Source of the DNA: Mobula hypostoma
Taxonomy: Eukaryota
Direction: 5' to 3'
Assembly (NCBI RefSeq): GCF_963921235.1
Contig: NC_086097.1
Coordinates: 137,828,001-137,892,000, forward strand
DNA: 64,000 nucleotides
Shown here in pieces: positions 10,641 through 57,810 of the stretch (position 1 is its first letter; each line of letters starts with the position of its first letter). Below the pieces are notes generated by a model. It was given only the letters and a program-made list of their open reading frames with translations. It was not told the DNA's origin and did not search any database. The position numbers and the translations under genes were made by a program.

Positions 10641-11100
10641 GTCCTTGAAATAATCAGTTGAACATGTTCTAAGCCTGTGCACGGTAATCAGATATTCTGC
10701 GGAGTTAGAAAGCAGCTGGGAGTCTGTGGGCGGGGGAAAGAGTGGGTGGGTGATTACAACTTTAATTCCAAATGTTTAACAGCAAAAAAAAGGCAAATAA
10801 TTAGAGGTGTTTTATGATCTGCAAATCAGGGCTGTGTAATCAATAAACCTCATGGAACATTTATTAAAAGGGCCCAGGTGGATCTTTAACCTCTCAGCAA
10901 AACTCTTAGAAGAATCATTCAGGGATTCTGTGCCTGTCAACACATTGAGATTATTAGTTGCCTGTTATTTAGATTGCTTGAACTGCCTTAGATTTACTGC
11001 TGTATGTGATATTAAACTTCTGCGCATACCCTCCTTTTCAAAATGTATTATGCTGAGCCAAAACCATAAATTGACGGTTCTTTATTAACATTGACAAACA

Positions 11101-11654
11101 CATTCAGTGGCCACATTATTAGATACAGGGCTGTACCTAATAAAGTGGCCACTGAGTTTATGTTTGTGGTCACTGATGCTGCTGCATCAAGGTTCAAGGT
11201 TCGGATTGTTACATGTTCAGAGATGCTCTTCTGCACAGCACGGTTGAATGTGTGGTTATCTGGGTTACTGTCGCCTTCCTGTCAGCTTGAACCAGTCTGG
11301 CCATTCTCCTCCGACCTCTCTCAGTAATAGGGCATTTTTACCCACAGAACTGCTGCTCATTGGATTTTTTTTTACTTTTCACACCATTCAATATAAACTC
11401 TAAAGACTGTTGTGCATGAAAATCCCAGGGGGTCGGCAATTTCTGAGATAACTCAAACCACTCTGTTTGGCACTAAGAATCATTCCACAGTCAAAATCGC
11501 ATTTCTTCCCCATTCTGACGTCTGGTCCGAACAACAATTGAACCTCTTGACCATGTCTGCATCCTATTATGCATTGAGTTGCTGGTACATGATTGGCTGA
11601 TTCGGTATTTACAAGCAGGAGTACAGGTCTACCTAATAAAGTCACCACTGAGTG
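11101..11654 (-). mobile_element. Non-autonomous Tc1 transposon derivative
   Basis: Same family and same internal structure as 9786-10353; TIRs at both ends. Confidence 0.85.
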
Positions 11655-11689: not shown

Positions 11690-12660
11690 AGTTAACTAAA
11701 AAGGTAGCAACAATAGCAAACTTAAAGAAAAAGAAAAGATGAGTAGCAGGTTGTTAGGTTGAATAAATAAAAGATTAATAAGGAAGCGAAATTTAGAGTA
11801 AAGGTATCCAGAAATGTAAAAACAATCAGTAAGAATTTCTATAGATTTTTTTTTGAAGTTAACAAAGTGGGCCAATACACACAAAATACTGGAGGAACTC
11901 AACAGGTTAGGCAGCATCTATGGAGGAAAATGAATAGTCGATATTTTGTTGGTTTCATGGAAAGTCCGCTTAGGAAATTAACAGTAGAAAAGTAGGAAAT
12001 AGAAGATGTACTAAAGGGGTATTTTTCACAAGCCCTGCCTAGGGAGGGATTTTTAACATTCAGGAATTGGAATGGAGGGAGGAATTCAGAAAAATTCCAA
12101 ATCCCAAGGGAGTGGGACTGAGTGAGTTGCTGGAACTGTGGGCTGGGCCCTGATGGAGTTCGTCGTGGTCTTGGAGATGGCCCGTGAGGTAGTTGTTGCA
12201 TCGGTTTTAATTTTCCATAATTTCCTAGATTCAGCATATTTCTAAGATTCATTTAGATTTGAAAATAGCAAACGTAACTGCTTTATTCAAATCGGGAGGG
12301 AGACAGTGAGCAGAAAAACACTGGCCAGTAGCTGAACATCTGCCAAAGAGAAAGTGTTAGAAGTAGTTATGAAAGACATTACAGCTGGATGCTTAGCAAA
12401 GATAAAGGTTATCAAGCAGACTCAGCATAGTTTTGTGAAAAGAAAATCATCCTTATTGGAAATGTTTGAAGCAGTAACTTGTGCTGTGGATAAAGGGATC
12501 TGGTGGATTCCTGTACTTAGATTCCCAGAAGATGTTTGATAAGGTGCCGCATCAAAGGTTACTGTGGAAATAAAAGCTTGCGGTGCCAGAGATGGCATGT
12601 TGGTGTGGACATGGTAAGTTGTAATGAGAACTGGAGCCACAACCTTTTACATTTATATAA
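11690..12660 (+). mobile_element. Old, fragmented CR1 ORF2 remnants, with a PLE end near 11878-11948
   Basis: IANVTALFK.GG and QHSFVK remnants; TTTGATAAGGTGCCGCAT (FDKVPH). Confidence 0.55.
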
Positions 12661-21334: not shown

Positions 21335-24090
21335 GTGAAAGAGAAGGGATGCACTCAGACCGATGGTTTGAGATGTGTCTATTTCAATGCAAGGAGTATT
21401 ATGAACAAAGTGGATGAGTTTACAGCGTGGATCAGATCTTGGAGCTGTGATGTTGTGGCGATTACAGAGACTTGGATGGCTCAGGGGCAGGAATGGTTAC
21501 TTAAGAGTGCCAGGCTTTAGATATTTCAGAAAGGACAGGGAAGGAGGCAAAAGAGGTGGGGGCGTGGCACTGTTGATCAGAGATAGTCATGGCTGCAGAA
21601 AAGGAGGAAGTCATGGAGGGATTGTCTACTGAGTCTCTGTTGGTGGAAGTTAGAAACAGGAAGGGGTCAATAACTCTACTGGGTGTTTTTTTTTTATAGA
21701 TCACCCAATAGTAACAGGGACATAGAGGAGCAGATAGGGAGACAGATTCTGGAAAGGTGTAATAATAACAGGGTTTTCATGGTGGGAGATTTTAATTTCC
21801 CAAATATTGATTGACATCTCCCTCAAGCAAGGGCTTTAGATGGGGTAGAGTTTGCTAGGTGTGCTCAGGAAGGTTTCCTGACACAATATGTAGATAAGAC
21901 TACAAGAGGAGAGGCTGTACTTGATCTGGTATTGGGAAATGAACCTGGTCAGGTGTCAGGTCTCTCAGTGGGAGAGTGATCACAATTCTATCTCCTTTAT
22001 CATAGCATTGGAGAGGGATAGGAACAGACAAGTTAAGAAAGTGTTTAATTGGAGTAAGAGGAAATATGAAACTATCAGGCAAGAACTTGGAAGTATAAAT
22101 TGGGAACATGTTCTCAGGGAAATGTACAGCAAAAATGTGGCAAATGTTCAGGGGATATTTGCGTGGCATTCTACATAGGTACATTCCAATGAGACAGGGA
22201 AATGATGGTAGGGTACAGGAACCATGGTGTACAAAGGCTGTTGTAAATCTAGTCAAGAAGAAAAGAAACCCTTATGAAAGGTTCAAAAAACCAGGTAATG
22301 ATAGAGATCTAGAAGATTATAAGGCTAGCAGGAAGGAGTTTAAGAATGAAATTAGGAGAGCCAAAAGGGGCCATGAGAAGGCCTTGGTGGACAGGATTAA
22401 GGAAAACCCCAAGGCATTCTACAAGTATGTGAAGAGCAAGAGGATAAGATGTGAGAGAATAGGACCAATCAAATGTGACAGTGAAAAAGTGTGTATGGAA
22501 CCAGAGGAGATAGCAGAGGTACTTAATGAATACTTTGCTTCAGTATTCACTACCAAAAAAGATCTTGGCGACTGTAAGGATGACTTGCAGCGGACTGAAA
22601 AGCTTGAGCATATAGACGTTAAGGAAAAGGATGTGCTGGAGCTTTTGGGAAGCATTGGGACCGAATGAGATGTACCCCAGGCTATTATGGGAGGTGAGGG
22701 AGGAGATTGCTGAGCCTCTGGCAATGATCTTTGCATCATCAATGGGGACGGGAGAGGTTCTGGAGGATGGGAGGTTTGCAGACATTGTTCCCTTATTCAA
22801 GAAAGGGAGTAGACATAGCCCAGGAAATTATAGACCTGTGAGTCTTACTTCAGTGGTTGGTAACTTGATGGAGAAGATCCTGAGAGGCAGAATTTATGAA
22901 CATTTGGAGAGGCATAATATGATTAGGAATAGTCAGCATGGCTTTGTCAAAGGCAGGTTGTGCCTTACGAGCCGATTGAGTTTTTTGAGCATGTGACTAA
23001 ACATATTGCTGAAGGAAGAGCAGTAGATGTAGTGTATATAGATTTCAGCAAGGCATTTGATAAGGTACCCCATGTAAGGCTTATTGAAAAAGTAAGGAGG
23101 CATGGGATCCAAAGAGGACGTTGCTTTGTAGATCCAGAATTGGCTTGTTCACAGAAGGCAAAGAGTAGTTGTAGACGGGTCATATTCTGCATGGGGATCG
23201 GTGACCAGTGGTGTGTCCCAGGGATCTGTTCTTTCTGATTTTTATAAAGGACCTGGATGAGTAAGTGGAGGGATCGGTTAGTAAATTTGCTGATGGCATA
23301 AAGGTTGGGGGTGTTGTGGATAGTGTGGAGGGCTGTCAGAGGTTACAGTGGGACATTGATAGGATGCAGAACTGGGCTGAGAAGTGGCAGATGGAGTTCA
23401 ACCCAGGTAAGTGTGAGGTGGTTCATTTTGGTAGGTCAAATATGATTGCAGAATATAGCATTAATGGTAAGATTCTTGGCAGTGTGGAGGATCAGAGGGA
23501 TCTTGGGGTCTGAGTCTATAGGATGCTCAAAGCTGCTACACAGGTTGACTCTGTGGTTAAGAAGGCATACGGCACATTGGCCTTCATCAATTGGGGGATT
23601 GAGTATAAGAGCCGAGAGGCAATGTTACAGCTATATAGGACCCTGGTCAGACCCCACTTGGAGTACTGTGCTCAGTTCTGGTCGCCTCACTACAGGAAGG
23701 ACGTGGAAACCGTAGAAAGGATGCAGAGGAGATTTACAAGGATGTTGCCTGGATTGGGGAGCATGCCTTATGAGAATAGGTTGAGTGAACTCGGCCTTTT
23801 TTGCTTGGATGATGGAGGATGAGAGGTGACCTGACAGAGGTGTACAAGATGATGAGAGGCATTGATAGTGTGGATAGTCAGCGGCTTTTTCCCAGAGCTG
23901 AAATGGCTAACATGAAAGGGCATTGTTTTAAAGTGCTTGGAAGCAGGTACAGAGCAGATGTCAGGGTTAGGTTTTTTATGCAGAGAGTGGTGAGTGTGTG
24001 GAATGGGCTGCTGGAGGCGGAAACAAAAGGGTTTTTAACAGACTCCTGGATAGGTACATGGAGCTCAGAAAAATAGAGGGCTATGGGTAA
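21335..24090 (+). pseudogene. CR1 ORF2 (APE endonuclease plus reverse transcriptase), disrupted
   Basis: YFNARSI.NK, VAITETW, GGGVAL, GDFNFP, NYRPVSLTS, DFSKAFDKVPH; RT catalytic motif mutated to FADG. Confidence 0.92.
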
Positions 24091-24181
24091 GCCTAGGTAA
24101 TGTCTAAGGTAAGGATATGTTCGGCACAGCTTTGTGGGCCGAAGGGCCTGTATTGTGCTGTAGGTTTTCTATGTTTCTATG

Positions 24182-24629
24182 TTACAAGGATATTGCCTGG
24201 ATTGGGGAGCATGCCTTATGAGAATAGGTTGAGTGAACTCGGCCTTTTCTCCTTGGAGCAGCAGAGAATGAGAGGTGACCTGATAGAGGTGTATAAAATG
24301 ATGAGAGACATTGATCATGTGGATAGTCAGAGACTTTTTCCCAGGGCTGAAATGGCTAGCACGAGAGGGCATAGTTTTAAGGTACTTGGAAGTAGGTACG
24401 GAGGAGATGTCAGGGGTAAGTCTTTTACGCAGAGAGTGGAGTGGGCTGCCGACGATGATGGTGGAGGCAGACACGATAGGGTCTTTTAAGAGACTCCTGG
24501 ACAGGGACATGGAGCTCAGAAAAATAGAGGGCTATGGGTAAGCCTAGGTAATTTCTAAGGTAAGAACACGTTCGGTACAGCTTTGTGGGCCAAAGGGCCT
24601 GTATTGTGCTGCAGGTTTTCTATGTTTCT
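24182..24629 (+). mobile_element. Second, 5'-truncated CR1 inserted in the tail of the first
   Basis: Repeats 23733-24181 with many substitutions and different indels. Confidence 0.85.
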
Positions 24630-29638: not shown

Positions 29639-31690
29639 CGTGGAGTTCTGCATAGGTACATTCCAATGAGACAGGGAAAGAATGGTAGGGTACAGGAACC
29701 ATGGTGTACAAAGGCAGTTGTAAATATAGTCAAGAAGAAAAGAAGAGCTTACAAAAGGTTAAAAAAAACTAGGTAATGATAGAGATCTAGAAGATTATAA
29801 GGCTAGCAGGAAGGAGTTTAAGAATGAAATTAGGAGAGCCAGAAGGGGCCATGAGAAGGCCTTGGTGGACAGGATTAAGGAAAACCCCAAGGCATTCTAC
29901 AAGTATGTGAAGAGCAAGAGGATAAGATGTGAGAGAATAGGACCAATCAAATGTGACAGTGAAAAAGTGTGTATGGAACCAGAGGAGATAGCAGAGGTAC
30001 TCAATGAATACTTTGCTTCAGTATTCACTACCAAAAAAGATCTTGGCGACTGTAAGGATGACTTGCAGCGGACTGAAAAGCTTGAGCATATAGACGTTAA
30101 GGAAAAGGATGTGCTGGAGCTTTTGGGAAGCATTGGGACCGAATGAGATGTACCCCAGGCTATTATGGGAGGTGAGGGAGGAGATTGCTGAGCCTCTGGC
30201 AATGATCTTTGCATCATCAATGGGGACGGGAGAGGTTCCGGAGGATTGGAGGGTTGCGGATGTTGTTCCCTTATTCAAGAAAGGGAGTAGACATAGCCCA
30301 GGAAATTATAGACCTGTGAGTCTTACTTCAGTGGTTGGTAACTTGATGGAGAAGATCCTGAGAGGCAGAATTTATGAACATTTGGAGAGGCATAATATGA
30401 TTAGGAATAGTCAGCATGGCTTTGTCAAAGGCAGGTCGTGCCTTACGAGCCGATTGAATTTTTTGAGCATGTGAGTAAATACATTGCTGAAGGTAGAGCA
30501 GTAGATGTAAGGTATATGGATTTCAGTAAGGCTTTTTACAAGGTACCCCATGCAAGGCTTATTGAGAAAGTAAGGAGACATGGGGATCCAAGGGGACATT
30601 GCTTTGTGGATCCAGAACTGTCTTGCCCACAGAAGGCAAAGAGTAGTTGTAGACGGGTCATATTCTGCATGGAGGTCCATGACCCGTGGTGTGTCTCAGG
30701 GATCTGTTCTGGGACCCCGACTCTTCAAGATTTTTAGAAATGATCTGGATGAAGAAGTGGAGGGATAGGTTAGTAAATTTGCTGATGACACTAAGGTTGG
30801 AGGTGTTGTGGATAGTGTGGAGGGCTGTCAGAGGTTATAGTGGGACATTGATAGGATGCAAAACTGGGCTGAGAAGTGGCAGATGGAGTTCAACCCAGGT
30901 AAGTGTGAGGTGGTTCATTCTGGTGGATCAAATACGATGGCAGAATATAGTATTAATGGTAAGACTCTTGGCAGTGTGGAGGATCAGAGGGATCTTCGGG
31001 TCTGAGTCCATAGGACTCTCAAAGCTGCTGTGCAGGTTGACTCTGTGGTTAAGAAAACATACTGTGCTTTGGCCTTCATTAATCGTGGGATTGAGTTTAG
31101 GAGCCGAGAGGTAATATTGCAGCTATATAAGACCCTGGTCAGACCCCACTTGGAGTACTGTGCACAGTTCTGGTCCCCTCACTATAGGAAGGATGTGGAA
31201 ACCATAAAAAAGGTGCAGAGGAGATTTAGAAGGATGTTGCCTGGATTGGGAAGCATGCCTTATGAGAATAGGTTGACTGAACCCGGCCTTTTCTCCTTGG
31301 AGCGACGGAGGATGAGAGGTGACCTGATAGAGATGTACAAGATGATGGGAGGCATTAATCATGTGGATAGTCAGAGGCTTTTTCCCAGGGCTGAAATGGC
31401 TAGCATGAGAGGGCACAGTGTTAAGGTGCTTGGAAGCAGGTACAGAGGAGATGTCAGGGGTAAGTTTTTTACGCAGAGGGTGTTGAGTGCGTGGAATGGG
31501 CTGCCGGTGACGATGGTGTAGGCGGATACGATAGGGTCTTTTAAGAGACTTCCGGACAGGGACATGGAGCTCAGAAAAATAGAGGGCTATGGGTAACCCT
31601 TGGTAATTTCTCAGCTAAGGACATGTTCGGCACAGGTTCGTTGGCTGAAGGGCCTGTATTATGCTGTAGGTTTTCTACGTTTCTATGTTT
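29639..31690 (+). mobile_element. 5'-truncated CR1 LINE (same family as 20059)
   Basis: Colinear with 22162-24181; KFADDTK at about 30775; TTTCTATG tail. Confidence 0.93.
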
Positions 31691-44629: not shown

Positions 44630-44929
44630 ATGTGGGTGATGGATTCTCTCTCTGTGGCTCTGCTGTGGGCAGCCCTGGCTCAGGCTGGCTGCGGCGGGCA
44701 GTCCCGGGGCACCGAGGGGGGCCGCAGGCGCCTGAACAGGGTCCAGCACGGGCCATGCAGCTACACCTTCATCTTGCCTGAGCTCGAGGGCGGCTGCCGG
44801 GGTCCTGCTGAGAGTCACAGCACCAACTCCCTGCAGCGGGACGAACCGCCGCTGGAATCGGACTGGCCCTCGCAGAAGCTGCAGCGGCTGGAGACGCGGT
44901 CCGACAACAACACCCAGTGGCTGCGCAAG
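44630..44929 (+). CDS. ANGPT4: Angiopoietin first coding exon (signal peptide, superclustering domain, start of coiled coil); ANGPT1/ANGPT4 subfamily, probably ANGPT4
   Basis: MWVMDSLSVALLWAALAQAGC..RRLNRVQHGPCSYTFILPE..C..NSLQRD..SQKLQRLE..NNTQWLRK; 100 codons ending at the phase-0 donor AAG|GTAGGA (44930), where angiopoietin exon 1 ends; CpG-rich. Family call is firm, paralogue call is not. Confidence 0.88.
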
Positions 44930-46289
44930 GTAGGACCTCCCTCCCGCCCTTGCTTCCTGCCCCCTGTGCCTGCGTGAAGGTAACCCTCTGGGTGGGCAGC
45001 ATGCCACGGCAGAGATGCCAACATGGCACTGGTGGAAGGACCAAGGAAGGGCATCCCACATCTCCTTAGTTACCTCAGGCTCACTATCCCAGCACCCTCA
45101 CCATTGCTGTCTCCAACCACTCGCTCATCCAGCACAGCCTCCTGTCCTAAACTCACCCTCCTCACCTGCCCCAGCTGACTGGCTGCGTTTTCAATCATTC
45201 CCAAATCCTCCGTTTATCCTACTCCAAGCTCACGGTCCACCATGGCTGCAAACCCCAGTTCCGTCCTCCCTCTCATCCCCATCATTCCACCACCCCTGCC
45301 TTCAGTTGCCCTCATCCAAAACTCCTTCCTTATGCCTCCCTTCCTCTTCCTTCTCCTTCACTGTCCAGGTCCCCAGTTCACTCTGGGACTCTCTCCCTAC
45401 ACTTCCCAGCCTCTCCTTCCTTTTCCAGCAGCCTAACCCCTGAGTTCTCCAGCTCCCTAACCCGCTCTCCAACTCTCTCTCTCTGTCTCTCTCTCCACAT
45501 CTAAGACCTCCCTTGGTGTGAATGGGCTTCCGTCCGGACATCTCCTTTACCTTGGTGTACCTGGGACTGTTCTCCATGTTAAACGAGCTGCGGGGGTGGG
45601 GGAGTGGGGGGGCCTTCTGCAAATTGTTGCGACCCAGTGCTCTAAAGCAGGTTTAGTGCCACACTGGCTCGGTCTCGCTGTGGTGTAGGTCTCGCACCGA
45701 GACCACCACCGGGACACCCCCGACTGGGCGCTTCACTAAAGCCACGCCATGACCTGGGAAAACCCGAGAGAGAGATCCCTGAGGCGGTCAGTGTTGACGG
45801 TGCAGCGTTATACTGTACACCCTGTTTCTGGTTTATTATCACTGACATAGGTCGTGAATTTTTTTGTTTGTTTTTGTAGTTGCAGTACCGAACAAAGCAT
45901 AAACTGCCCGTTGTGTATGAGTCAGTACCGTCTGCGGGAAAGGGAGGGGGTGCTTCAGGTTCTCGCCCCCTGGATCGAACACGGGGTGTTTTGTAGCACA
46001 ATTAGGGGTAAATTTGGCGCGGAGAGTGCGATAATTAAGGGTGGCGTTGACACGGAGCGAGTGCCGCCTGGTCAATCCGGACGGTTCTGGGTTCGTCCAG
46101 CATTGCGAGCCCCAGGAGACCCGACCTTCAAACACGGCCGGGTGCTGGGACCAGGAACCAGGCTCACACCGGCGTGACAGGTCGCTGCTCCGCCTGGCGG
46201 CAGGTAGATGGAGCTCGGGATCCGACGGCCGAGGGGTGGAGTTCGGGAGGTGTGGTAAGGGGGTGGGGTGTAGTGGAGTTGGCACGGCG

Positions 46290-46946
46290 CTGTACCCCTG
46301 TAACGGGAGTGTGGGTGACACGCTCTCCTCTCCAACTCCACTGTACTCATGTAACCAGGGAGTGAGGGACACACTCCCCCCTCCACTGTACTCATGTAAC
46401 CAGGGAGTGAGGGACACACTCCCCCCTCCACCTCCACTGTACTCATGTAACCAGGGAGTGAAGGACACACTCTCCCCTCCACTGTACCCCTGTAACGGGA
46501 GTGTGGGTGACACGCTCTCCTCTCCAACTCCACTGTACTCATGTAACCAGGGAGTGAGGGACACACTCCCCCCTCCACTGTACTCATGTAACCAGGGAGT
46601 GAGGGACACACTCCCCCCTCCACCTCCACTGTACTCATGTAACCATGTAGTGAGGGACACACTCTCCCCTCCACCTCCACTGTACTCATGTAACCACGGA
46701 GTGAGGGACACACTCTCCCCTCCACCTCCACTGTCCTCATGTAACCAGGGAGTGAGGGACACACTCCCCCCTCCACTGTACTCATGTAACCAGGGAGTGA
46801 GGGACACACTCCCCCCTCCACCTCCACTGTACTCATGTAACCATGTAGTGAGGGACACACTCTCCCCTCCACCTCCACTGTACTCCTGTAACCAGGGAGT
46901 GAAGGACACACTCCCCCCTCCACTGTACTCATGTAACCAGGGAGTA
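46290..46946. repeat. Minisatellite of 45- and 51-bp units (13 full plus 1 partial)
   Basis: Unit CTGTACTCATGTAACCAGGGAGTGAGGGACACACTCCCCCCTCCA(CCTCCA). Confidence 0.95.
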
Positions 46947-47552: not shown

Positions 47553-48275
47553 CATGCAGTGGCCACTTTATTAGGTACAGGAGTGGAACCCAGTGTGATC
47601 TTCTGGGGCTGCAGCCCATCCACTTCAGGGTTTGATGTGTTGTGCTTTCAGAGATACTCTCCTGTTGTAATGCATGGTTATTTGATGTGTTGTGCTTTCA
47701 GGGATACTCTCCTGTTGTAATGCACAGTTATTTGGATTTGCCTTCCTGTCAGCTTGAACTAGTCTGGTCATTCTCCCTTGAACTTTCTAACTAACAAGGC
47801 ATTTTTTGCCTGCGGAACTGTTGTTCCTGGATGCTTTTTGTTTGTTTGCACCCTTCTCGGTAAACTCTAGGGACTGTTGTGTGTGAAAAATCCCAGGAGA
47901 TCAACAGTTTCTGAGATACTCAAACCACCCAGTCTGGCACCGACAATCATTGCATGATCGAAGTCACTTAGAGCACACTTCTTCCTCAGTCTAATGTCTA
48001 AACCCCTTAGTCCACGGGTGGCCAACCTTTTACATTCCATGCGTCAATTTTTTCACGCACAAGTTCAGATGCGATTTTTTTCATGCACGAGTTCTATATT
48101 AACATATTTTTACAAGAATTGAATGGGGGTAAAAGAGCTGTATGGCGCATCTGAACTCGTGAATGAAAAATTTGATGCATGGAATGTAAAAGGTTGGCCA
48201 CCCCTGTCTTAGTCATATCCTATATTTACATATTTTTATGCATTGAGTTGCTGCCACATGATAGGATTACTAGAT
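47553..48275 (-). mobile_element. Non-autonomous Tc1 derivative, truncated, with a 50-bp tandem duplication (47631-47730) and a nested MITE
   Basis: TA followed by CATGCAGTGGCCACTTTATTAGGTACAG; body homologous to the 9786 and 11101 copies. Confidence 0.8.
48013..48206. mobile_element. hAT (Charlie/Buster-like) MITE
   Basis: TIRs of about 55-60 bp starting CA(C/G)GGGTGGCCAACCTTTTACATTCCATGC; 8-bp TSD CCTTAGTC/TCTTAGTC with central TA. Confidence 0.85.
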
Positions 48276-48646
48276 CGCAAACAACAGGAATTCTGCAGAT
48301 GCTGGAAATTCAAGCAACACACATCAAAGTTGCTGGTGAATGGTTGCTGGTGCCGCTAATGCCCCACCTCCCCCTCGTACCCCATCCGTTATTTATTTTT
48401 ATACACACATTCTTTCTCTCTCTCTCCTTTTTCTCCCTCTGTCCCTCTGAATATACCCCTTGCCCATCCTCTGGGTCCTCCCCCCCCCGCCCCGTCTTTC
48501 TCCCCGGACCTCCTGCCCCATGATCCTCTCATATCCCCTTTGCCAATCACCTGTCCAGCTCTTGGCTCCATCCCTCCCCCTCCCCCTCCAACTTACAAAT
48601 CCCTTACTCACTCTTCCTTCAGTTAGTCCTGACGAAGGGTCTCGGC
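48276..48646 (+). mobile_element. Penelope-like fragment (short inverted end plus pLTR truncated inside the hammerhead)
   Basis: Homologous to 54015-54999; ends AGTCCTGACGAAGGGTCTCGGC. Confidence 0.8.
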
Positions 48647-51119
48647 AGGGAAGGTGCAGTGCAGGTGGACAAATAAAGTGCAAGGGCCACATTGAGGTCG
48701 ACTGGGAGATCAAGAGTTCATCTCTTAGCAGCGGTGTCCTTCAAACTCTTAAATCTTCAGAATTCTTCATCATGAGAGATACAAAACAGAAACAGGCCAT
48801 GCTGACCACAAAACACCCTTTTACACTAATCCTATTCTTTACTCTCATCAACAACCCCACAGATCCTGCCCCTCCACTGCAGAGAAGAGAAGGGATTTAA
48901 AGGGCAATTGTCCTTCTTAAGTACTGAAAGTGGCAAAGAAACCTCACTCCTTAGTAGCTCCTGCCTGAGATGGTAATTCAAAGGGATGTGGTGGTTTTGA
49001 CACTGAAATCCAATCCCCTCCTCTTCCCCCAACCTCATGATCACATCTGTGACCAGCTGTCCTTTGAAAATCAGCAGCGGGCCGCTGAGAGGAGGGGACC
49101 TGGCCTAAGTTTTGCTCCATTCCATAAGTCCACAGGGAAAGAGGCAGAAACTGGGCCTCTCCTTAACAAAATGGACGACTAAATCCACAATTGCCATCCT
49201 TGAGCCAGCAAACCTGTGGCAGAGATAGTTCAGTGTAAGGTCATTCGATGTTGGGATTCCTGCTTCCTTTCAGAGGTGGGGATGTTCTTGGGATCAGTCA
49301 CAGGCACAATGTGCCAAGGGCTGGGGTGAGTGGGAGGTGATCATAAAGAGTCAGCAAGGCTTGAGGGAACTTTGGATTATCTTGCGGAGGTCTCCAAAGA
49401 CAAGTGGTAAAGTTCCGAACATCAGTGTAGCCACGCCAAGTGGGTTGGTAAAAGGCTATGGATAGAATGATGCCCTCTGATTGACAGGATGTGACCAGTG
49501 TCATTCCCTGGGGAATTGTTCTGCAATCTCATCTTCTCACTACTTAGAGGAGTTGCTTGGTGAAGGAGTGGAGACGTATATACCCAAGCCTGGAGATGTC
49601 CCATTGGTTGGGTAGGCCAGGGCAGGGAGGGTCTGTGGACTTTGGGAAACTGTAAAATAGGTGATGTTGTACTGGCTGTTCACTCACTACACTCCTGGAT
49701 ATCAAATTTGTTGAATTCACAACTACCAGCAGTGAGCTGAGAAATCTGCAGCAGACCTTCTCAAGGAAGGTGGATTATGAGGTTTAAAGTGAAACCGGGT
49801 TCAACTCTGGGAACCATCTAAGGAAGCAGTGTTGAACTGCAAGAGTTAACCTATCAGGCAGGTTGCACTTATCAGAGTTATACTCACCTGAGTTTAGAGG
49901 ACTGATGGTCGATTGTGAGGCGGGTGCTCATGGGGAAATGACTTACTTTGGTGAGGGGAGACCAGAAGAGGCACAGACCCAGCCAGTCAGGACAAAGTCA
50001 GGAAGCACCTCTCCACACAGAGACGGAGGGAGTCTGGGTCTTTCCCCAGCATCACTATGGATGCTGCACATCCATTTCAAAATGGAGACTGCGGATTGAA
50101 GTCGACATTTCAGGCTGGGACCCTGCAGCAGCGTCGCAAAAATGTCTATTTATGCCGTGGGCTTCCTCAGTTGCTGCTCACTCACTTTTTTTTCAGTTTC
50201 CTGTTTTTGTTCTAGATTACAACACATGCAATCTTTTGTTTTTATTGACAAATCTATATTTGATAAAGTAATTGAAAGGTATGTGTGTAAGAGGCCAGGT
50301 TACAAGTGTGTCTGTGTATTTGACTGTGTGTGTGTGTGTGTGTATGAGAGAGTGAAATTCAGAGAGAGCATGTGAGCGTGCATGTTCGAAGAACAATGTA
50401 AACCAGTTCTTTTTAAGGGCTATTGCTGCCCTGGGAGTTCTTTTGTAGTTACTACTCCAGTCCATTTTCGTCTGCTTCAGGCAGGTGTTTTCTCTCAGAA
50501 TAAAGTTGTTCCCTTGGGCGCAATTGCTCACCATTAGCATATAGAAGAGATGAGATGGGATATACTCCGGCTGAGATCAGCTGCCTGGCTGGATGAAGAA
50601 CATACTGCTGCACTGGGTTTACAATGAACGTTAACTCCACTGCTTCAGCACAGCTAACCCAAGTACTTTCCACCTTTGATTCGTCTCTTGGGTGTTTGTA
50701 ATGCAAAGCGAGAGCCAGTTAAATTTTTTACACTGGCTGAATGAATTCGTCTTAAATTATGCAAATTATTCTATCCTGCTGAGACCAGGGTATGCTGGAA
50801 ACACAACTATGTGTTAATGATGCTTACCATAATTACTGATCAGGTTACCCAGTGGGTTCATGGGCAGGTTGGCAAACTCCAGAACCAGTTTGCTCAATTT
50901 ACGCTGCCAATAGTGACTTTCACATCACCATCCTCCTGAACTGAACTTCCTCGGAAACCTTAAAAACCTGCCGCATTTGCACCTTAAGCTCAAGGCAGAA
51001 AGGTCAGGCTCAGAATTTTTTTAAGATCAAGGAAAAGGTTTATTCATAATAAAAATGTATACAAAGGAAGGAACAGTGCGAATCTTTCACATGCACGGTC
51101 AATACATGCAGTAGAGAAT

Positions 51120-52215: not shown

Positions 52216-52330
52216 GTGTCTCATAACAATATGCTAACCACTATTGCAATGCCAGCCGGTCGATCTATCCCAGAACAGTTCACTTTTAACTGCAGCGAAT
52301 GAATTATTGTTGGAGGTATTAGAAATTCCT

Positions 52331-52434
52331 AGCAACACACTCACAAAGTGCTGAAGGAACTCAGCAGGTCAGGCAGCATCTAAGGAAATGAATAGAGGGT
52401 CGACGTTTCTGGCCGAGACCCTTCTTCAGGACTG
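52331..52434 (-). mobile_element. Penelope-like terminal fragment with a hammerhead motif
   Basis: Reverse strand CAGTC-CTGAAGA-AGGGTCTCGGCCA-GAAA-CGTC-GAC followed by AGATGCTGCCTGACCTGCTGAG. Confidence 0.8.
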
Positions 52435-52559
52435 ATTTATATATTTTAATCATCACTTTTTGTTACTCTCTCCCAGTCCAGTCTCTTTGTTTGTCCTTCC
52501 ACGCCTCATTTACTTTTAGTTCACCTAGTTTCTTCCCCTTTTAGTCCAGTATCTTCCTC

Positions 52560-52889
52560 AAAACCAGGACTCTCAACACCAGCTTCAAGTACAATTACTA
52601 CCCTTCAACCATCAGGCTCTTGAAGTACAGAGGTTAACTCCACTTATTCTATTTCTGGTGTTCCACAACCAATCATCTCACTTTAAGGACTCTTTACCTT
52701 GTTATTTCATGCTCTCATTATTTATTTCTACTTATTTATATTTGCAATTGCAGTTTGTTTTTCTTTGACCATTTACAGTTACTGTTCTATATATTTGTTA
52801 AGTATGCCTGCAGTAAAAAGAATCTCAGGACTGTATATGGTGTCATATATGTTCTTTGATAATAAATTTTACTTTGACTTTGACTTTGA
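52560..52889 (+). mobile_element. Rex1-type 3' end with (ACTTTG)n tail
   Basis: AATAAATTTTACTTTGACTTTG tail; related tails near 33420-33570 and 58150-58535. Confidence 0.65.
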
Positions 52890-54120
52890 TTAAGGAGATA
52901 GTCTGTAGTTTAAGGAATGCTGAGGTTGCCCTCTTCCCTCCACACTTGTTATCCCTTTCGATTCCTAGCGAGTTATAGCTGTGTTGTGGATAGGTGGGCA
53001 GGCTGTGAAATGCCACTCGCCAGCTGGGTCTGGCTCTTGGAGCCAAGAGGGACTGAACCGGATTCGGAGCTTGTGGGATCGGATTGAAGACCGCAGAAGC
53101 TGCACACTTGCGTTGCCCCGACACTGACTGTGGGGGCTGTGAACGCCTGCGAGGGTGTACTTGTGCGAGAGTGTGGGTGTGGGCTGGGTGCATGCCCACA
53201 CAATGGTGTATGAGAGCGTGAGTGCATGTGTAGCTGTGTGCAAGGAAGAGTGTACGAGATGTGAACGTGTGCAACAGTGTACGAGCATGTGAAGGTGTGC
53301 AAGTGTGTGCAGGAGTGGAAGTCGTTGGGTCAGCAATGACCTCTGCCCTGAATGCTTTATGCTTTTGATGGTCTTCGACTTTTACGGACTCCAAACGATG
53401 TGTGACTAATTGAGGAACTCTGAAAGAGTCAGCACAGGCATGATTGACCAAATGGCCTTCTCTGCATCATGGTGTTCCAAGGTTTGGAATGAAACAGGAA
53501 CCTTCGTTCACTTTGTATTTGCCATCATGTGTTTCTGATTTGCTTGTCTGAGTGGAGAACGTGATTACTGCTTCCCTGACCTTTGCACCCAAGAAGTTCA
53601 GAATCCTGTGGACGAGTTACCCCTGCGAAGGACAAGGCGATGGCTGACAGGAGAGGTGGGAGGGGTGGTCAGTGACAGTTCAAGTTAGGACCTGGGATAC
53701 TGAGTAAGAGGAAGTCCAATAAATAAATAAGTCATAACCTGCAGCTGGCAGTGAAATACTTCCAGTCATTAACCTTATGCAGCTTCAAATGAGCACAAAT
53801 CAGATGCACCAGCCTCCCTTCCCCCTACCATCAAGCTAACTTGATTTTTTTACTCAACTTTCCAGATCAGAAAAGTAATTGTTCTTGGATTAGCAGATAA
53901 ACATCAAGGGATTTGTGTGATATGTTTGCCACAACTTGAAATAAAAAGACGGCTCCTGCTTCAGTTAAAAGAATAATGACTCAGTGGCCTGAAAGACCTT
54001 TTTAATTGTATTTCAAAACGCAGACAGGAGGAAATCTGCAGATGCTGGAAATTCAAGCAACACACACAAAAAATGCTGGTGGAATGCAGCAGGCCAGGCA
54101 GCATCTATAGGAAGAGGTAC

Positions 54121-54156
54121 AGTTGACGTTTCGGGCCGGGACCCTTCGTCAGGTCT
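54121..54156 (-). ncRNA. Minimal hammerhead ribozyme motif (stem I mismatched)
   Basis: AGAC-CUGACGA-AGGGUCCCGGCCC-GAAA-CGUC-AACU. Confidence 0.65.
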
Positions 54157-54898
54157 AATTGAAAGAGGAGATAGTAAGAGATTTGAAAGTGGGAGGGGGA
54201 GGGGGAGGGGGAGATCTGAAATGATAGGAGAAGACAGGAGGGGAAGGGATGGAGCCAAGAGCTGGAAAGTTGATTGGCAAAGAGGAGACCAGTCTGGAGA
54301 AGGGAGAGGATCATGGGACGGGAAGCCTGGGGGGAGAGAGAAGGGGGGAGGGGAGCCCAGAGGGTGGAGAGCAGGCAAGGAGTTAAAGTGAGAGGGACAG
54401 AGGGAGAAAAAAGAGAGAGAGAAAAAAAGGGGGGGAAATATATTAAATAAATAAATAAGGGATGGGATGTGAAGGGGAGGAGGGGCACTTAACGGAAGTT
54501 AGAGAAGTCAATATTCATGCCATCAGTTTGGAGGCTACCCAGACGGAATATAAGGTGTTTTTCCTCCAACCTGAGTGTGGCTTCATCTTGACAGTAGAGG
54601 AGGCCGTGGATAGACATATCAGATTGGGAATGGGACGTGGAATTAAAATGTGTGGCCACTGGGAGATCTTGCTTTATGTCCCTCTCACTATACCTATTGC
54701 CTGCTCTCCACCCTCTGGGCTCCCCTCCCCCCTTCTCTCTCTCCCTAGGCTTCCCATTCCATGATCCTCTCATATCCCTTTTGCCAATCAACTTTCCAGC
54801 TCTTGGCTCCATCCCTCCCCCTCCTGTCTTCTCTTATCATTTCAGATCTCCCCCTCCCCCTCCCACTTTCAAATCTCTTACTAGCTCTTCCTTCAGTT

Positions 54899-54934
54899 AG
54901 TCCTGACGAAGGGTCCTGGCCTGAAACGTCGACT
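54899..54934 (+). ncRNA. Minimal type I hammerhead ribozyme motif
   Basis: AGUC-CUGACGA-AGGGUCCUGGCCU-GAAA-CGUC-GACU: stem I AGUC/GACU, both core boxes, palindromic ACGU stem III, GUC cleavage triplet. Confidence 0.75.
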
Positions 54935-55079
54935 GTACCTCTTCCTAGAGATGCTGCCTGGCCTGCTGCGTTCACCAGCATTTTTTGTGTGTGTTGCTGT
55001 AATTGTATTTCTGAGGGTTATCAGGAAGAGTTGGTGGTATTGAGGTCTGTGGAGGCAGCTCTGTACATCCTATGCTCCA

Positions 55080-55400
55080 TGGTATGTGGGCATTCAACTT
55101 GGGCCAGAGGGCCTAGGGTTTGCCTTGCATATCCCTGCAGCAGTGTGGGAGTGCGCCACAGTGGGCTACCTCTCTGCGGAACCATTAAACCACAGCATTG
55201 CCTGCTCTCTTCAGTCTATAATCCCTTGGTATAATTTAAATAAATCCGGACATCACCCCAGTGACCTGCTGGTTAATATTCATCTCCCAATAATGTCCCT
55301 GAAGGCGACAGCCGCGCGACTGACCACATTGCTGTTTATGGGAGCTCGCTGTGCACAGGTCTGTTGCAATATTTCCTACTTTACAGTGCCTCCTTTATTG
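55080..55400 (+). mobile_element. DeuSINE (SacSINE1-like)
   Basis: GGGAGTGCG..TTAAACC..AATATTCATCTC..CACATTGCTGTTTATGGGAGCTCGCTGTGCAC. Confidence 0.65.
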
Positions 55401-55479
55401 GGTGGGAAGGGTTCTGATGTTGTGGAGGATTTTATTTCGTGAGTGTCATTAAGAATGATACAGTCAACTGCAAGTTTTT

Positions 55480-56090
55480 GACAGGTTCTTATTCAGAGGA
55501 TAAATAAAAGGAGCCAGTTGCTTTGGGGGCAGTGCAGAGAGGGTTCATCGGGTTGATTACTGGATGAAGAGGTTATTTACAAGCAAAGGTTTGAACACCG
55601 GAATCTCATCTGTCCACTTCCCACCGCAGACACTGCCTGACCTGCTGAGTTCCTCCAGAAGTTTGTTTTTTTTTTGGCTCCAGATTACAGCTTCTGCGGT
55701 GTCTGGTGTCTCCAAGGTTTGAACAGGCTGTGACATTTCTCATGGAAGCTTAGAAGAGTGAGAGGTGATCTTATTGAAATATATGATATTCTAATGGGGG
55801 GGAGGGGTGGTTGATAGGGAGGATGCTGAGAGAAAGTTTCTTTAGAGGTGCTGTCTACAACTAGAGTAAAAGGGTCATTTTCTTAAGATGGAGATGAAAA
55901 ATTTCTTATCTTGGGAGGGAAAGTTGGAATTCTCTACATTGAAGAGCTGTGGAAGCAGTGCCATTGAATGTTTTCAAGGCAAAGATGGTGGAATTTGATC
56001 CGTAGGGGAGACAAGGGTTGGGATGGAATCAAACCTCTCAGATTGGCTGTGATCTCAGTGAATAAGAGAGCAGACTCGGGGGTGGAATTA
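55480..56090 (+). mobile_element. Old CR1 3' fragment interrupted by a PLE end (about 55610-55712)
   Basis: VQRGF, RVRGDLIEIY; CR1 3' UTR. Confidence 0.6.
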
Positions 56091-56442
56091 CTCCCATCTT
56101 TTCCCCACCAATTTCCAAACTTTGATTTCGTATGTGCTTGAAAGGAATACAAATTCCCCATGGGGACACAGAAACCATGGCACATTCTGAAAGGTTTCTA
56201 AGTAGTTCCCACATATCCGTGAACAGAAGAAATATTTGTAAAGCAGTCAAGGAAACTCGATGCCTGAAACTGAACATAAACACTGTGAAATTCTTATTCA
56301 GGCAGGCATGTGCCTTGTGTCCCCGTTACTGCACCAACCTTCATTTAGTTAGTGTCCATTAATAATCGTTATTCAGATCCTGTCACACTAATCGAGTAGA
56401 AATGATGAAAGTTCATGAAGCCTTGATTGCAGTGAGCAACCA

Positions 56443-56590
56443 GTGGGGCGCCATGGTGGTGTAGTGGTTAATGCGACGCCATTACAGCTTGGGGTCTCGG
56501 AGTTTGGAGTTCAATTCCGGCGTCCTCTGTAAGAAAGTTTGTATGTTCCTCCGGTACTCTGGTTTCCTCCTACAGTCCGAAAATGTACAG
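56443..56590 (+). mobile_element. V-SINE 5' part
   Basis: TGGTGTAGTGG A box, GAGTTCAATTCC B box, CTCTGGTTTCCTCCTACAGTCC core. Confidence 0.7.
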
Positions 56591-56659
56591 CCTCCTTCAG
56601 CTACCTTACCTCATCCCCTACCTCACCTGGTTCCACCTACCTTCTGCCGGCCTCCTGTC

Positions 56660-57810
56660 TCAGAATCAGGTTTATTATCACCGGCATGTGTTGTGAAAGT
56701 TGTCAACTTAGCGTAATATAGAAGAAGAAAAAAATTAATAATAATAAAAAAGTAAATCAATTTACAGTATTACATATATCAAATAGATTAAAATCATGCA
56801 AAAAGCAGAAATAATGTATATTAAAAAAATGAGGTAGTGTTCACGGGTTCAATGTCCATTTAGGAAACTGATGGCAGAGGGGTAGAAGCTGTTCCTGAAT
56901 CGCTGAGTGTGTGCCTTCAGGCTTCTGTACTTCCTACCTGATGGTAACCGTGAGAAAAGCGCATGCCCTGGGTGCTGGAGGTCTTTAATAATGGACGCTA
57001 CCCTTCTGAGACACCGTTCCCTAAAGATGTTCTGGGTACTTTGTAGGCTAGTACCCAAGATGGAGCTGACTAGATTTACAACCTTCTGCAGCTTCTTTTG
57101 GTCCTGTGCAGTAACCCCTCCATACCAGACAGTGATGCAGCCTGTCAGAATGCTCTCCATGGTACAACTATAGAAGTTTCTGAGTGTATTTGTTGACATG
57201 CCAATCTCTTCAAACTCCTAATAAAGTACAGCCACTGTCTTGCCTTCTTTATGACTATATCAATGTGTTGGGACCAGGTTAGATGCTCAGAGATCTTGAC
57301 ACCCAGGAACTTGAAGCTGCTCACTCTCTCCACTTCTGATCCCTCTATGAGGATTGGTATGTGTTCCTTCGTCTTACCCTTCCTGAAGTCCACAATCAGC
57401 TCTTTTGTCTTACTGATGCTGAGTGCCAGGTTGTTGCTGCAGCACCACTCCACTAGTTGGCACATCTCACTCCTGTATGCCCTCTCGTCACCATCTGAGA
57501 TTCTACCAACAATGGTTGTATTATCAGCAAATTTATAGATGGTATTTGAACTATGCCTAGCCACACATTCATGGGTATAGAGAGAGTAGTACAGTGGGCT
57601 AATCACACACCCCTGAGGTGCACCAGTGTTGATCGTCAGTGAGGAGGATATGTTATCACCAATCCACACAGATTGTGGTCTTCCCATTATGAAGTCGAGG
57701 ATCCAATTGCAGAGAGAGGTACAGAGGCCCAGGTTCTGCATCTTCTCAATCAGGATTGTGGGAGTGATGGTGTTAAATGCTGAGCTATGGTTGATGAACA
57801 GCATCCTGAC
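56660..57810 (-). mobile_element. Rex1/Babar LINE (RT pseudogene), 5'-truncated
   Basis: [57 protein letters not shown]. Confidence 0.92.

What the first reader, a model, noticed from the sequence alone, without database searches (positions are those of the whole stretch)
54003..55011. TSD-bounded Penelope-like insertion places a hammerhead ribozyme and its antisense copy in the same angiopoietin intron
Seen: a 12-bp TSD TAATTGTATTTC (54003-54014 and 55000-55011), a GIY-YIG C-terminal fragment on the minus strand, and inverted arms of about 344 and 322 nt. Each arm has a CUGACGA...GAAACGUC core, and the + copy keeps a perfect AGUC/GACU stem I. Established: Penelope-like elements carry minimal hammerheads with palindromic stem III, thought to cleave as dimers, and often integrate with inverted pLTRs. 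Inference: in the angiopoietin pre-mRNA the arms could fold into a ~320-bp hairpin that sequesters the sense ribozyme and offers an ADAR/Dicer substrate. That would be a self-silencing ribozyme cassette tolerated inside a gene.
Basis: partly seen in the sequence, partly recalled or inferred. Interest (0 to 1): 0.7.

Follow-up and report, generated by a model that had tools for sequence, protein, structure and literature searches.

The report
Truncated Penelope insertion with inverted end
This 985-base insert in a ray genome is the cut-down end of a Penelope-type jumping gene joined to a mirror-image copy of itself, and the spot is empty in three relatives; its self-cutting RNA motif is likely inactive, and the predicted hairpin is likely an ordinary by-product of insertion, not a silencing device.

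Summary
The 12-bp TSD is exact. The empty site carries a single copy of it in 3 of 3 runs from other organisms, and the insert's junctions occur in two organisms. The insert is a 5'-truncated Penelope-like element: endonuclease end, pLTR, a 41-nt tail on one side only, and an inverted 322-nt pLTR copy. That layout is the published norm for this class, including hammerhead pairs on opposite strands. The hairpin is predicted to bury the sense hammerhead (mean pairing 0.97). Silencing is probably unnecessary, though. Such minimal hammerheads do not cleave as monomers (PMC4209133). This copy has G·U in place of the conserved G10.1-C11.1 pair, and no second intact sense core lies in the window. The arms differ by 6.2%, no less than flanks differ from organisms lacking the insert. 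One lean toward selection: G·U-compatible differences outnumber A·C 10:3 (p=0.09). The intron placement rests on exon 1 alone, and transcription is untested. The scan found this kind before on other DNA: 34 notes in at least 9 genomes, two of the 8 shown from this genome. Verdict: ordinary.

The parts
44630..44929 (+). Coding part of exon 1 of an angiopoietin-1-like gene (host context); GT donor at 44930; no later exon in the window
   Evidence: 100 aa, 100% identical to P0001 (labelled angiopoietin-1-like, Mobula birostris); tblastn of 5 full-length relatives hits only this exon; a lenient search finds no exon 2
54003..54014 (.). Left target-site duplication (12 bp, AT-rich, contains ATT)
   Evidence: exact repeat; single copy at the empty site in X9, X10, X11
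54015..54055 (-). 41-nt 'tail': the element's 3' extension, present on the left end only
   Evidence: outside the arm alignment; also at the end of family copy 48276-48342; a 30-40 bp one-sided tail is described for PLEs
54056..54399 (-). Left arm: 3' part of the pLTR in element-sense orientation, antisense in the inferred host pre-mRNA (344 nt)
   Evidence: arm alignment
54121..54156 (-). Decayed minimal hammerhead: core intact, stem II base pair G-C, stem I broken (2 of 4 pairs)
54400..54488 (-). Unduplicated 5' part of the pLTR (part of the 277-nt hairpin loop)
   Evidence: matches family copy 48353-48583; lies behind the ORF stop codon
54489..54675 (-). Last 61 codons and stop of the PLE ORF (C-terminal end of the GIY-YIG endonuclease); everything upstream is missing
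   Evidence: 90% identical to P0043, E 1e-27; alignment; family contigs run on with other sequence behind 54675 in 4 of 4 runs (table 7)
54676..54676 (.). Inner head-to-head junction (one base assigned to neither side)
54677..54998 (+). Right arm: inverted, 5'-truncated pLTR copy without tail (322 nt), sense in the inferred host pre-mRNA
   Evidence: the right outer junction is seen in X1 and X5 contigs (table 8)
54899..54934 (+). Minimal type I hammerhead motif: stem I AGUC/GACU, core CUGACGA, extra A at 54910, stem II with G·U at its base (54911/54922), GAA, palindrome ACGU, predicted cut after C54930
   Evidence: no Rfam hammerhead hit
55000..55011 (.). Right target-site duplication

Best explanation
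This is a 5'-truncated insertion of a very abundant Penelope-like retrotransposon, likely of the Neptune clade, made of the element's 3' end joined head to head to a shorter inverted copy of its pLTR; it likely lies in intron 1 of an angiopoietin-1-like gene, is likely decaying neutrally, and its sense hammerhead is predicted to be inactive with or without the hairpin. Shown: the anatomy, the TSD, the empty site, presence in two organisms, and the base changes in both hammerheads. Inferred mechanism: the element's endonuclease cut an AT-rich target with a 12-nt stagger. Both target ends primed reverse transcription, one at the long start site (giving the tail) and one at a start site about 41 nt further in. 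Both cDNAs stopped early and were joined in the middle, possibly by a 5-nt microhomology since eroded. Inferred consequence: if the intron is transcribed, the antisense arm is made first and the sense arm zips onto it, giving a roughly 320-bp imperfect duplex. ADAR would likely edit it like other inverted repeats, and it would be removed with the intron. The pairing is a geometric by-product of how these elements integrate.
For: Empty site with a single TSD copy in 3 of 3 runs; outer junctions in X1 and X5. Family abundance: 171,199 contigs laid in X1 and 54,501 to 109,927 in the other three runs; summed depth over the insert is 1e5 to 6e6 against about 12 on the flanks (the tool says this is no copy number, so it shows great abundance only). 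At least 4 more family fragments lie in the window. Inverted 5'-truncated copy, one-sided 30-40 bp tail and TSD are described as typical. Opposite-strand min-HHR pairs 100-700 bp apart are reported. Cleavage at ATT, extension from both strands and two RT start sites bracketing the tail are shown in vitro for the anole element. Arm divergence of 20/322 (6.2%) compares with flank divergence of 4.0-6.8% to organisms lacking the insert (Fisher p=1.0 against X10) and 1.5-1.6% to the organism sharing it. Monomeric min-HHRs are inactive. The + copy has G·U at 10.1/11.1, and its open hammerhead fold has a predicted probability near 1e-4 because GACG pairs with CGUC over the cut site. It is the only + strand core with a full stem I in the window. 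5 of the 7 closest proteins carry the CX2-5CxxC linker.
Against: In the + strand hairpin, 10 of 13 transition differences are G·U-compatible and 3 are A·C (two-sided p=0.09, one-sided 0.046), whereas a hand tally of polarised flank transitions is even (11:11 as entered, Fisher p=0.16; a recount gives 11:12). The sense copy, not the antisense one, kept stem I and all core bases. The insert has persisted in two organisms. Thermodynamic models omit hammerhead tertiary contacts, so the low predicted probability of the open fold is weak evidence. The two-ended priming step is taken from another clade's element (Poseidon) and is not shown for this family. The inner junction is not confirmed by any independent contig.
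Confidence: 0.87

Rival explanations
1. One reading: the inverted arm is a safety catch. The sense hammerhead could cut the pre-mRNA, and the insertion was tolerated because the antisense arm, transcribed first, sequesters it.
For: Mean probability 0.97 that hammerhead bases pair with the left arm, and stem I probability 0.00 in the full insert. The helix is predicted to zip as the 3' end grows. G·U lean of 10:3. Sense copy intact in core and stem I. Tandem retrozymes are under-represented in Xenopus introns (10.64898/2026.07.22.740005, passages), so selection against genic ribozymes is conceivable.
Against: Monomeric min-HHRs do not cleave, and the anole one needs the element's protein, with no RNA-seq ends at its cut site. 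G10.1-C11.1 is lost in this copy. No intact sense partner lies in the window. The arms are as diverged as neutral flanks. Every inverted insertion of this class gives the same geometry, whichever way it lands.
Confidence: 0.06
2. Same element, different origin of the inversion: one cDNA folded back on itself at a short microhomology and copied its own pLTR (self-priming), and the short arm was then trimmed at the tail boundary. This differs from the best explanation only in the integration step.
For: Self-priming was proposed for inverted PLE junctions (PMC3846280). Family contigs continue behind 54675 with five bases complementary to 54398-54402 in X1. Both arms share a base at 54916/54139 that about 86-95% of family depth lacks, which points to one source copy.
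Against: There is no junction palindrome; the loop is 277 nt. The short arm ends exactly one tail-length from the long end, as two RT start sites would give. The arms differ at 54891/54164, a site where the family is split in X1 and X5 (38-41% T) but nearly all T in X9 and X10, which fits two templates. The same microhomology also fits the joining of two cDNAs.
Confidence: 0.3
3. The sense hammerhead does cut the nascent intron now and then, by pairing in trans with a transcript of another copy or with help from the element's protein, before the hairpin closes.
For: Core, palindromic ACGU and stem I are intact, and the family is very abundant.
Against: The active dimer form is predicted at -6.7 kcal/mol against -28.3 for the best dimer fold. 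The complementary arm is already present in cis when the motif is made. Dimers cleave only weakly in vitro.
Confidence: 0.04
4. The inverted structure is an assembly artefact.
For: No listed contig spans the insert, and such structures are known to trouble assemblies.
Against: Both outer junctions, in opposite orientations, are present in contigs of two organisms. The arms differ by 6.2% plus indels. The TSD matches the empty site.
Confidence: 0.02

Closest known systems
Endonuclease-bearing Penelope-like elements with inverted pLTR, tail and TSD (Adineta vaga Pen2/Pen2a, PMC3846280 passages; general scheme in bioRxiv 10.1101/2021.04.23.441226 passages)
   Same: 5'-truncated copy plus adjacent inverted truncated copy; tail on one end; TSD of similar size (8-10 bp there, 12 bp here)
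   Different: Here only 61 codons of the ORF remain, there is no tandem direct pLTR, and there is no junction palindrome (277-nt spacer)
Neptune clade PLEs
   Same: The closest proteins carry a C-terminal GIY-YIG region with internal CxxC and an upstream CX2-5CxxC linker, the trait given for Neptune and Nematis
   Different: The linker and RT are not in this copy; no RT tree was built; the target here is AT-rich but not a microsatellite
Minimal hammerheads (min-HHR) of metazoan PLEs (PMC4209133, parts 1-2 of 4 read)
   Same: Type I, short helix I, extra base between 9 and 10.1, palindromic 15.2-16.2 with no helix III; opposite-strand pairs already reported
   Different: The sense copy has G·U instead of G10.1-C11.1; the antisense copy has lost half of helix I; helix II is short (3-4 bp)
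Poseidon element of Anolis carolinensis (PMC11167929, parts 1-2 of 4 read)
   Same: ATT-containing target, one-sided tail, hammerhead in the pLTR
   Different: A different clade; that element is full-length and active in vitro, this one is a dead fragment
Inverted-repeat ADAR substrates in pre-mRNA (PMC5625713, passages)
   Same: Long imperfect intramolecular duplex predicted; Penelope is heavily edited in lizard and hyper-editing is recorded in elephant shark
   Different: Editing at this locus was not observed, because no raw RNA reads were available

Membership tests
EN+ Penelope-like element (truncated copy) | ORF with RT and C-terminal GIY-YIG endonuclease | tested here: inconclusive
   Only the last 61 codons are present; they are 69-90% identical to 7 ray/skate proteins, 4 of 6 scanned with a sub-threshold Pfam GIY-YIG hit. 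The RT is absent from this copy, as expected for a 5' truncation.
EN+ Penelope-like element (truncated copy) | pLTR behind the ORF carrying a hammerhead motif | tested here: met
   Core at 54125-54152 (-), about 340 nt behind the stop codon
EN+ Penelope-like element (truncated copy) | Inverted 5'-truncated copy adjacent to the 5' end | tested here: met
   54677-54998
EN+ Penelope-like element (truncated copy) | 30-40 bp tail on one end only | tested here: met
   41 nt, 54015-54055
EN+ Penelope-like element (truncated copy) | Target-site duplication with a matching empty site | tested here: met
Neptune clade | CX2-5CxxC linker upstream of GIY-YIG | tested here: met
   Met in 5 of the 7 closest proteins; the region is missing from this copy, and the trait is shared with Nematis
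Neptune clade | RT phylogeny | not tested
PLE minimal hammerhead (sense copy) | Core CUGANGA / GAAA / UH | tested here: met
PLE minimal hammerhead (sense copy) | Helix I of 4-5 bp, extra base between 9 and 10.1, palindromic 15.2-16.2 | tested here: met
   AGUC/GACU, A54910, ACGU
PLE minimal hammerhead (sense copy) | Conserved G10.1-C11.1 pair | tested here: not met
   G54911·U54922; the other arm has G-C. Filed as a decayed copy of the motif.
PLE minimal hammerhead (sense copy) | Self-cleavage as a dimer | not testable with these tools
   Needs an in vitro assay
Rfam hammerhead families | Covariance-model match | tested here: not met
   0 hits at gathering score in 64 kb; no hammerhead family among 2 hits at E<=10 in 53900-55800
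Non-LTR retrozyme | Head-to-tail tandem repeats of a hammerhead-bearing unit | tested here: not met
   The two copies are head to head, and no tandem unit is seen

The most novel reading that the evidence does not exclude
Inverted-pLTR integration gives Penelope elements a built-in safety catch: an insertion that puts an intact hammerhead on a gene's sense strand also puts its complement just upstream, so armed copies escape purging from introns while unarmed sense copies do not, and pairing is then kept by weak selection (the 10:3 G·U lean here). A second, separate possibility is that the two arms were copied from two different RNA molecules by a dimeric enzyme priming at both target ends.
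Probability: 0.07. Interest if true: 0.5.

Novelty: new member of a known kind. Interest (0 to 1): 0.13.

Why it matters
As one locus it matters little: it is a clean example of a published insertion type in a very abundant family. It is usefully complete, with a verified TSD, a one-sided tail, a bracketed age (present in two organisms whose flanks differ by about 1.6%, absent in three that differ by 4-7%) and a readable inner junction. It could therefore serve as one data point in a genome-wide test of how inverted pLTRs form, and of whether sense hammerheads are purged from introns unless armed. If that test came out positive, it would explain how ribozyme-bearing elements can fill genes, and would give the inverted pLTR a role.

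Tried and rejected
No whole genome is held for this window, so the share of family copies with inverted arms and the intronic orientation bias could not be counted. Rfam gave no hammerhead hit at either threshold; a motif without helix III is expected to be missed, so this is not evidence against it. Pfam on the window's ORF remnant found 0 families. A degenerate hammerhead pattern had 0 matches in metagenome contigs. No RNA holder was listed for 52500-57000, and the one run guessed to be RNA (X16) laid nothing on the unique flank 53560-54036; neither says anything about expression. All runs were contigs, so editing and RNA ends could not be read. A lenient search for exon 2 and later exons gave only E>=2.5 noise. 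The 114-aa frame 54489-54833 is rejected as a gene: its first 53 residues are the reverse strand of the right arm and junction. A relaxed core scan gave one further + strand hit (23053-23098, 2 of 4 stem I pairs, upstream of exon 1), dismissed as chance. Two papers opened for the effect of changing G10.1-C11.1 (PMC544870, PMC11300833; passages) mention the pair but give no rate for G·U, so the size of that effect is recalled, not cited. Earlier-finding look-ups by place and by sequence returned nothing. A retrozyme reading was rejected (no tandem units), as was a MITE reading (the insert carries a retroelement ORF end and a tail).

Full report
What is there. The window is from a ray: the exon at 44630-44929 (+) encodes 100 residues identical to a protein labelled angiopoietin-1-like of Mobula birostris. 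Five full-length relatives hit only this exon, it ends in a GT donor, and a lenient search finds no later exon. The insert, 9 kb downstream, is therefore inferred to lie in a long first intron with the + strand as sense. It runs from 54015 to 54999 between exact 12-bp repeats.

Anatomy. Read on the minus strand, the insert holds the last 61 codons and stop of a retroelement ORF (54489-54675), a pLTR (54488 down to 54056) and a 41-nt tail (54055-54015). The ORF remnant is 69-90% identical to 7 ray and skate proteins. Four of six scanned have a sub-threshold Pfam GIY-YIG hit, and five of seven carry the CX2-5CxxC linker that marks the Neptune and Nematis clades. The remnant itself has no Pfam hit. 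After a one-base junction, an inverted copy of the pLTR's 3' part (54677-54998) runs to the right TSD and lacks the tail. The arms are 344 and 322 nt, with 20 substitutions in 322 columns and 7 gaps.

Empty site and age. Contigs of three other organisms (X9, X10, X11; 3 of 3 such runs laid) carry one copy of the 12-mer followed directly by the right flank. In one search, contigs of X1 (flanks identical, possibly the window's own source, so not independent) and X5 (27 differences in 1734 bases) run from each flank into the element. The insert thus arose after the split from organisms whose flanks differ by 4.0-6.8%, and before the split from one that differs by about 1.6%. No listed contig spans the interior. 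The family is very abundant: 171,199 contigs were laid in X1, with summed depth 1e5 to 6e6 over the insert against about 12 on the flanks (not a copy number). At least four more fragments lie in the window.

The hammerheads. The core pattern occurs twice in 64 kb, against 0.01 expected. The + copy (54899-54934) reads as a type I minimal hammerhead: 4-bp helix I, CUGACGA, an extra A, a short helix II, GAA, the palindrome ACGU and a predicted cut after C54930. Its helix II begins with G·U, where the other arm has G-C; PMC4209133 lists G10.1-C11.1 as highly conserved. That this change lowers activity is recalled, and the two papers checked gave no figure. The - copy has only 2 of 4 helix I pairs. 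Rfam finds neither copy. Alone, the + motif is predicted to pair GACG with CGUC across the cut site, leaving the open fold at about 1e-4; the active dimer scores -6.7 against -28.3 kcal/mol for the best dimer fold. These models ignore tertiary contacts. No other + strand core with a full helix I lies in the window, though the intron extends beyond it.

The hairpin. The whole insert folds at -693.8 kcal/mol (z -32.6 against 20 shuffles). 35 of 36 hammerhead bases pair with the left arm, and the longest run is 45 Watson-Crick pairs, or 59 with G·U. The antisense arm would be transcribed first, and folds of growing 3' ends stay zipped. No RNA evidence could be had.

Is the pairing selected? The arms differ by 6.2%, the same as flanks differ from X10, which lacks the insert (Fisher p=1.0), and far more than flanks differ from X5 (p=8e-6). 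There is no sign that the arms are held alike. This rests on local-alignment counts, and it could also mean the arms came from two templates. Against my reading, 10 of 13 transition differences are G·U-compatible on the + strand (two-sided p=0.09, one-sided 0.046). A hand tally of polarised flank transitions from the rows shown is even: 11:11 as entered, Fisher p=0.16; a recount gives 11:12; one search showed 40 of 239 difference rows. This is a hint only, and one locus cannot settle it.

How it formed (inferred). The anole Poseidon protein cuts at ATT, extends both strands and starts reverse transcription at two sites that bracket the tail (PMC11167929). That fits an ATT-containing TSD, a long arm with a tail and a short arm without. 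Family contigs continue behind 54675 with five bases complementary to 54398-54402 in X1 (first base differs in the other three runs), which suggests a microhomology join, though the window has one other base in place of three of them. Fold-back self-priming (PMC3846280) remains a rival. The arms share a base rare in the family (54916/54139) but differ at a site where the family is split (54891/54164), so one versus two templates is open.

Comparison with what is known. An inverted 5'-truncated copy, a one-sided 30-40 bp tail and a TSD are described as typical of these elements. Min-HHR pairs 100-700 bp apart on opposite strands were reported in 2014; here the cores are about 750 bp apart. A single min-HHR showed no cleavage and multimers little. 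The anole motif needed protein and left no RNA-seq ends at its cut site. Penelope repeats are heavily edited in lizard. Five searches listed no paper whose title or abstract start tests sequestration of a PLE hammerhead by its own inverted pLTR. The library lacks most subscription papers, and I read no supplements; those of PMC4209133 may hold fish consensus motifs that bear on the helix II comparison. Papers seen: PMC4209133 and PMC11167929, parts 1-2 of 4; bioRxiv 10.1101/2021.04.23.441226, PMC3846280, 10.64898/2026.07.22.740005, PMC5625713, PMC544870 and PMC11300833, passages only. The scan holds 34 notes with the same key words in at least 9 genomes; two of the 8 shown are from this genome. 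They are unchecked and are not counted as support.

Verdict. This is a new member of a known kind: a dead, truncated Penelope-like insertion whose predicted hairpin follows from its mode of integration. Interest 0.13. The safety-catch reading has a probability of about 0.07 and would merit 0.5 if a genome-wide test bore it out.

Noticed in passing
window 48276-48647: A second inverted insertion of the same family in the same inferred intron. The tail end (48276-48342, -) is joined to a + strand pLTR piece (48353-48646) that stops inside hammerhead helix II. The two pieces do not overlap, as in a twin-priming inversion, so no hairpin forms; no clear TSD was seen by eye.
   Followed up: partly
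window 52322-52437 (-), 11877-11941 (-), 55598-55720 (+): Further pLTR fragments of this or related families. The 52 kb copy has a minus-strand hammerhead core with a mismatched helix II base, and could also pair with the right arm in the pre-mRNA (79.8% over 104 nt).
   Followed up: partly
window 54891: A base at which family depth is about 60% C in X1 and X5 but over 99% T in X9 and X10. This suggests a subfamily that expanded in the lineage carrying this insert.
   Followed up: partly
window 46290-46945: Tandem array with a unit of about 48/96 nt, 85-93% alike, 1.4 kb into the inferred intron 1, with long open frames on both strands.
   Followed up: no
window 48013-48206, 11094-11167, 33856-34009/34763-34916: Other palindromic or inverted elements: a roughly 190-bp palindrome, a short one, and a pair of 154-bp arms 96% alike about 750 bp apart that look like DNA-transposon terminal repeats.
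   Followed up: no
window 22162-24183 and 29639-31689: Two 2-kb copies of a LINE-like RT region, 91% alike, 7.5 kb apart in the same orientation; family assignment (CR1/L2-like) is recalled, not tested.
   Followed up: no
proteins P0045 and P0049: Public gene models named 'divergent protein kinase domain 1C' and 'neuromedin-U receptor 1' contain this element's ORF end. They are probably annotation chimeras with Penelope sequence.
   Followed up: no
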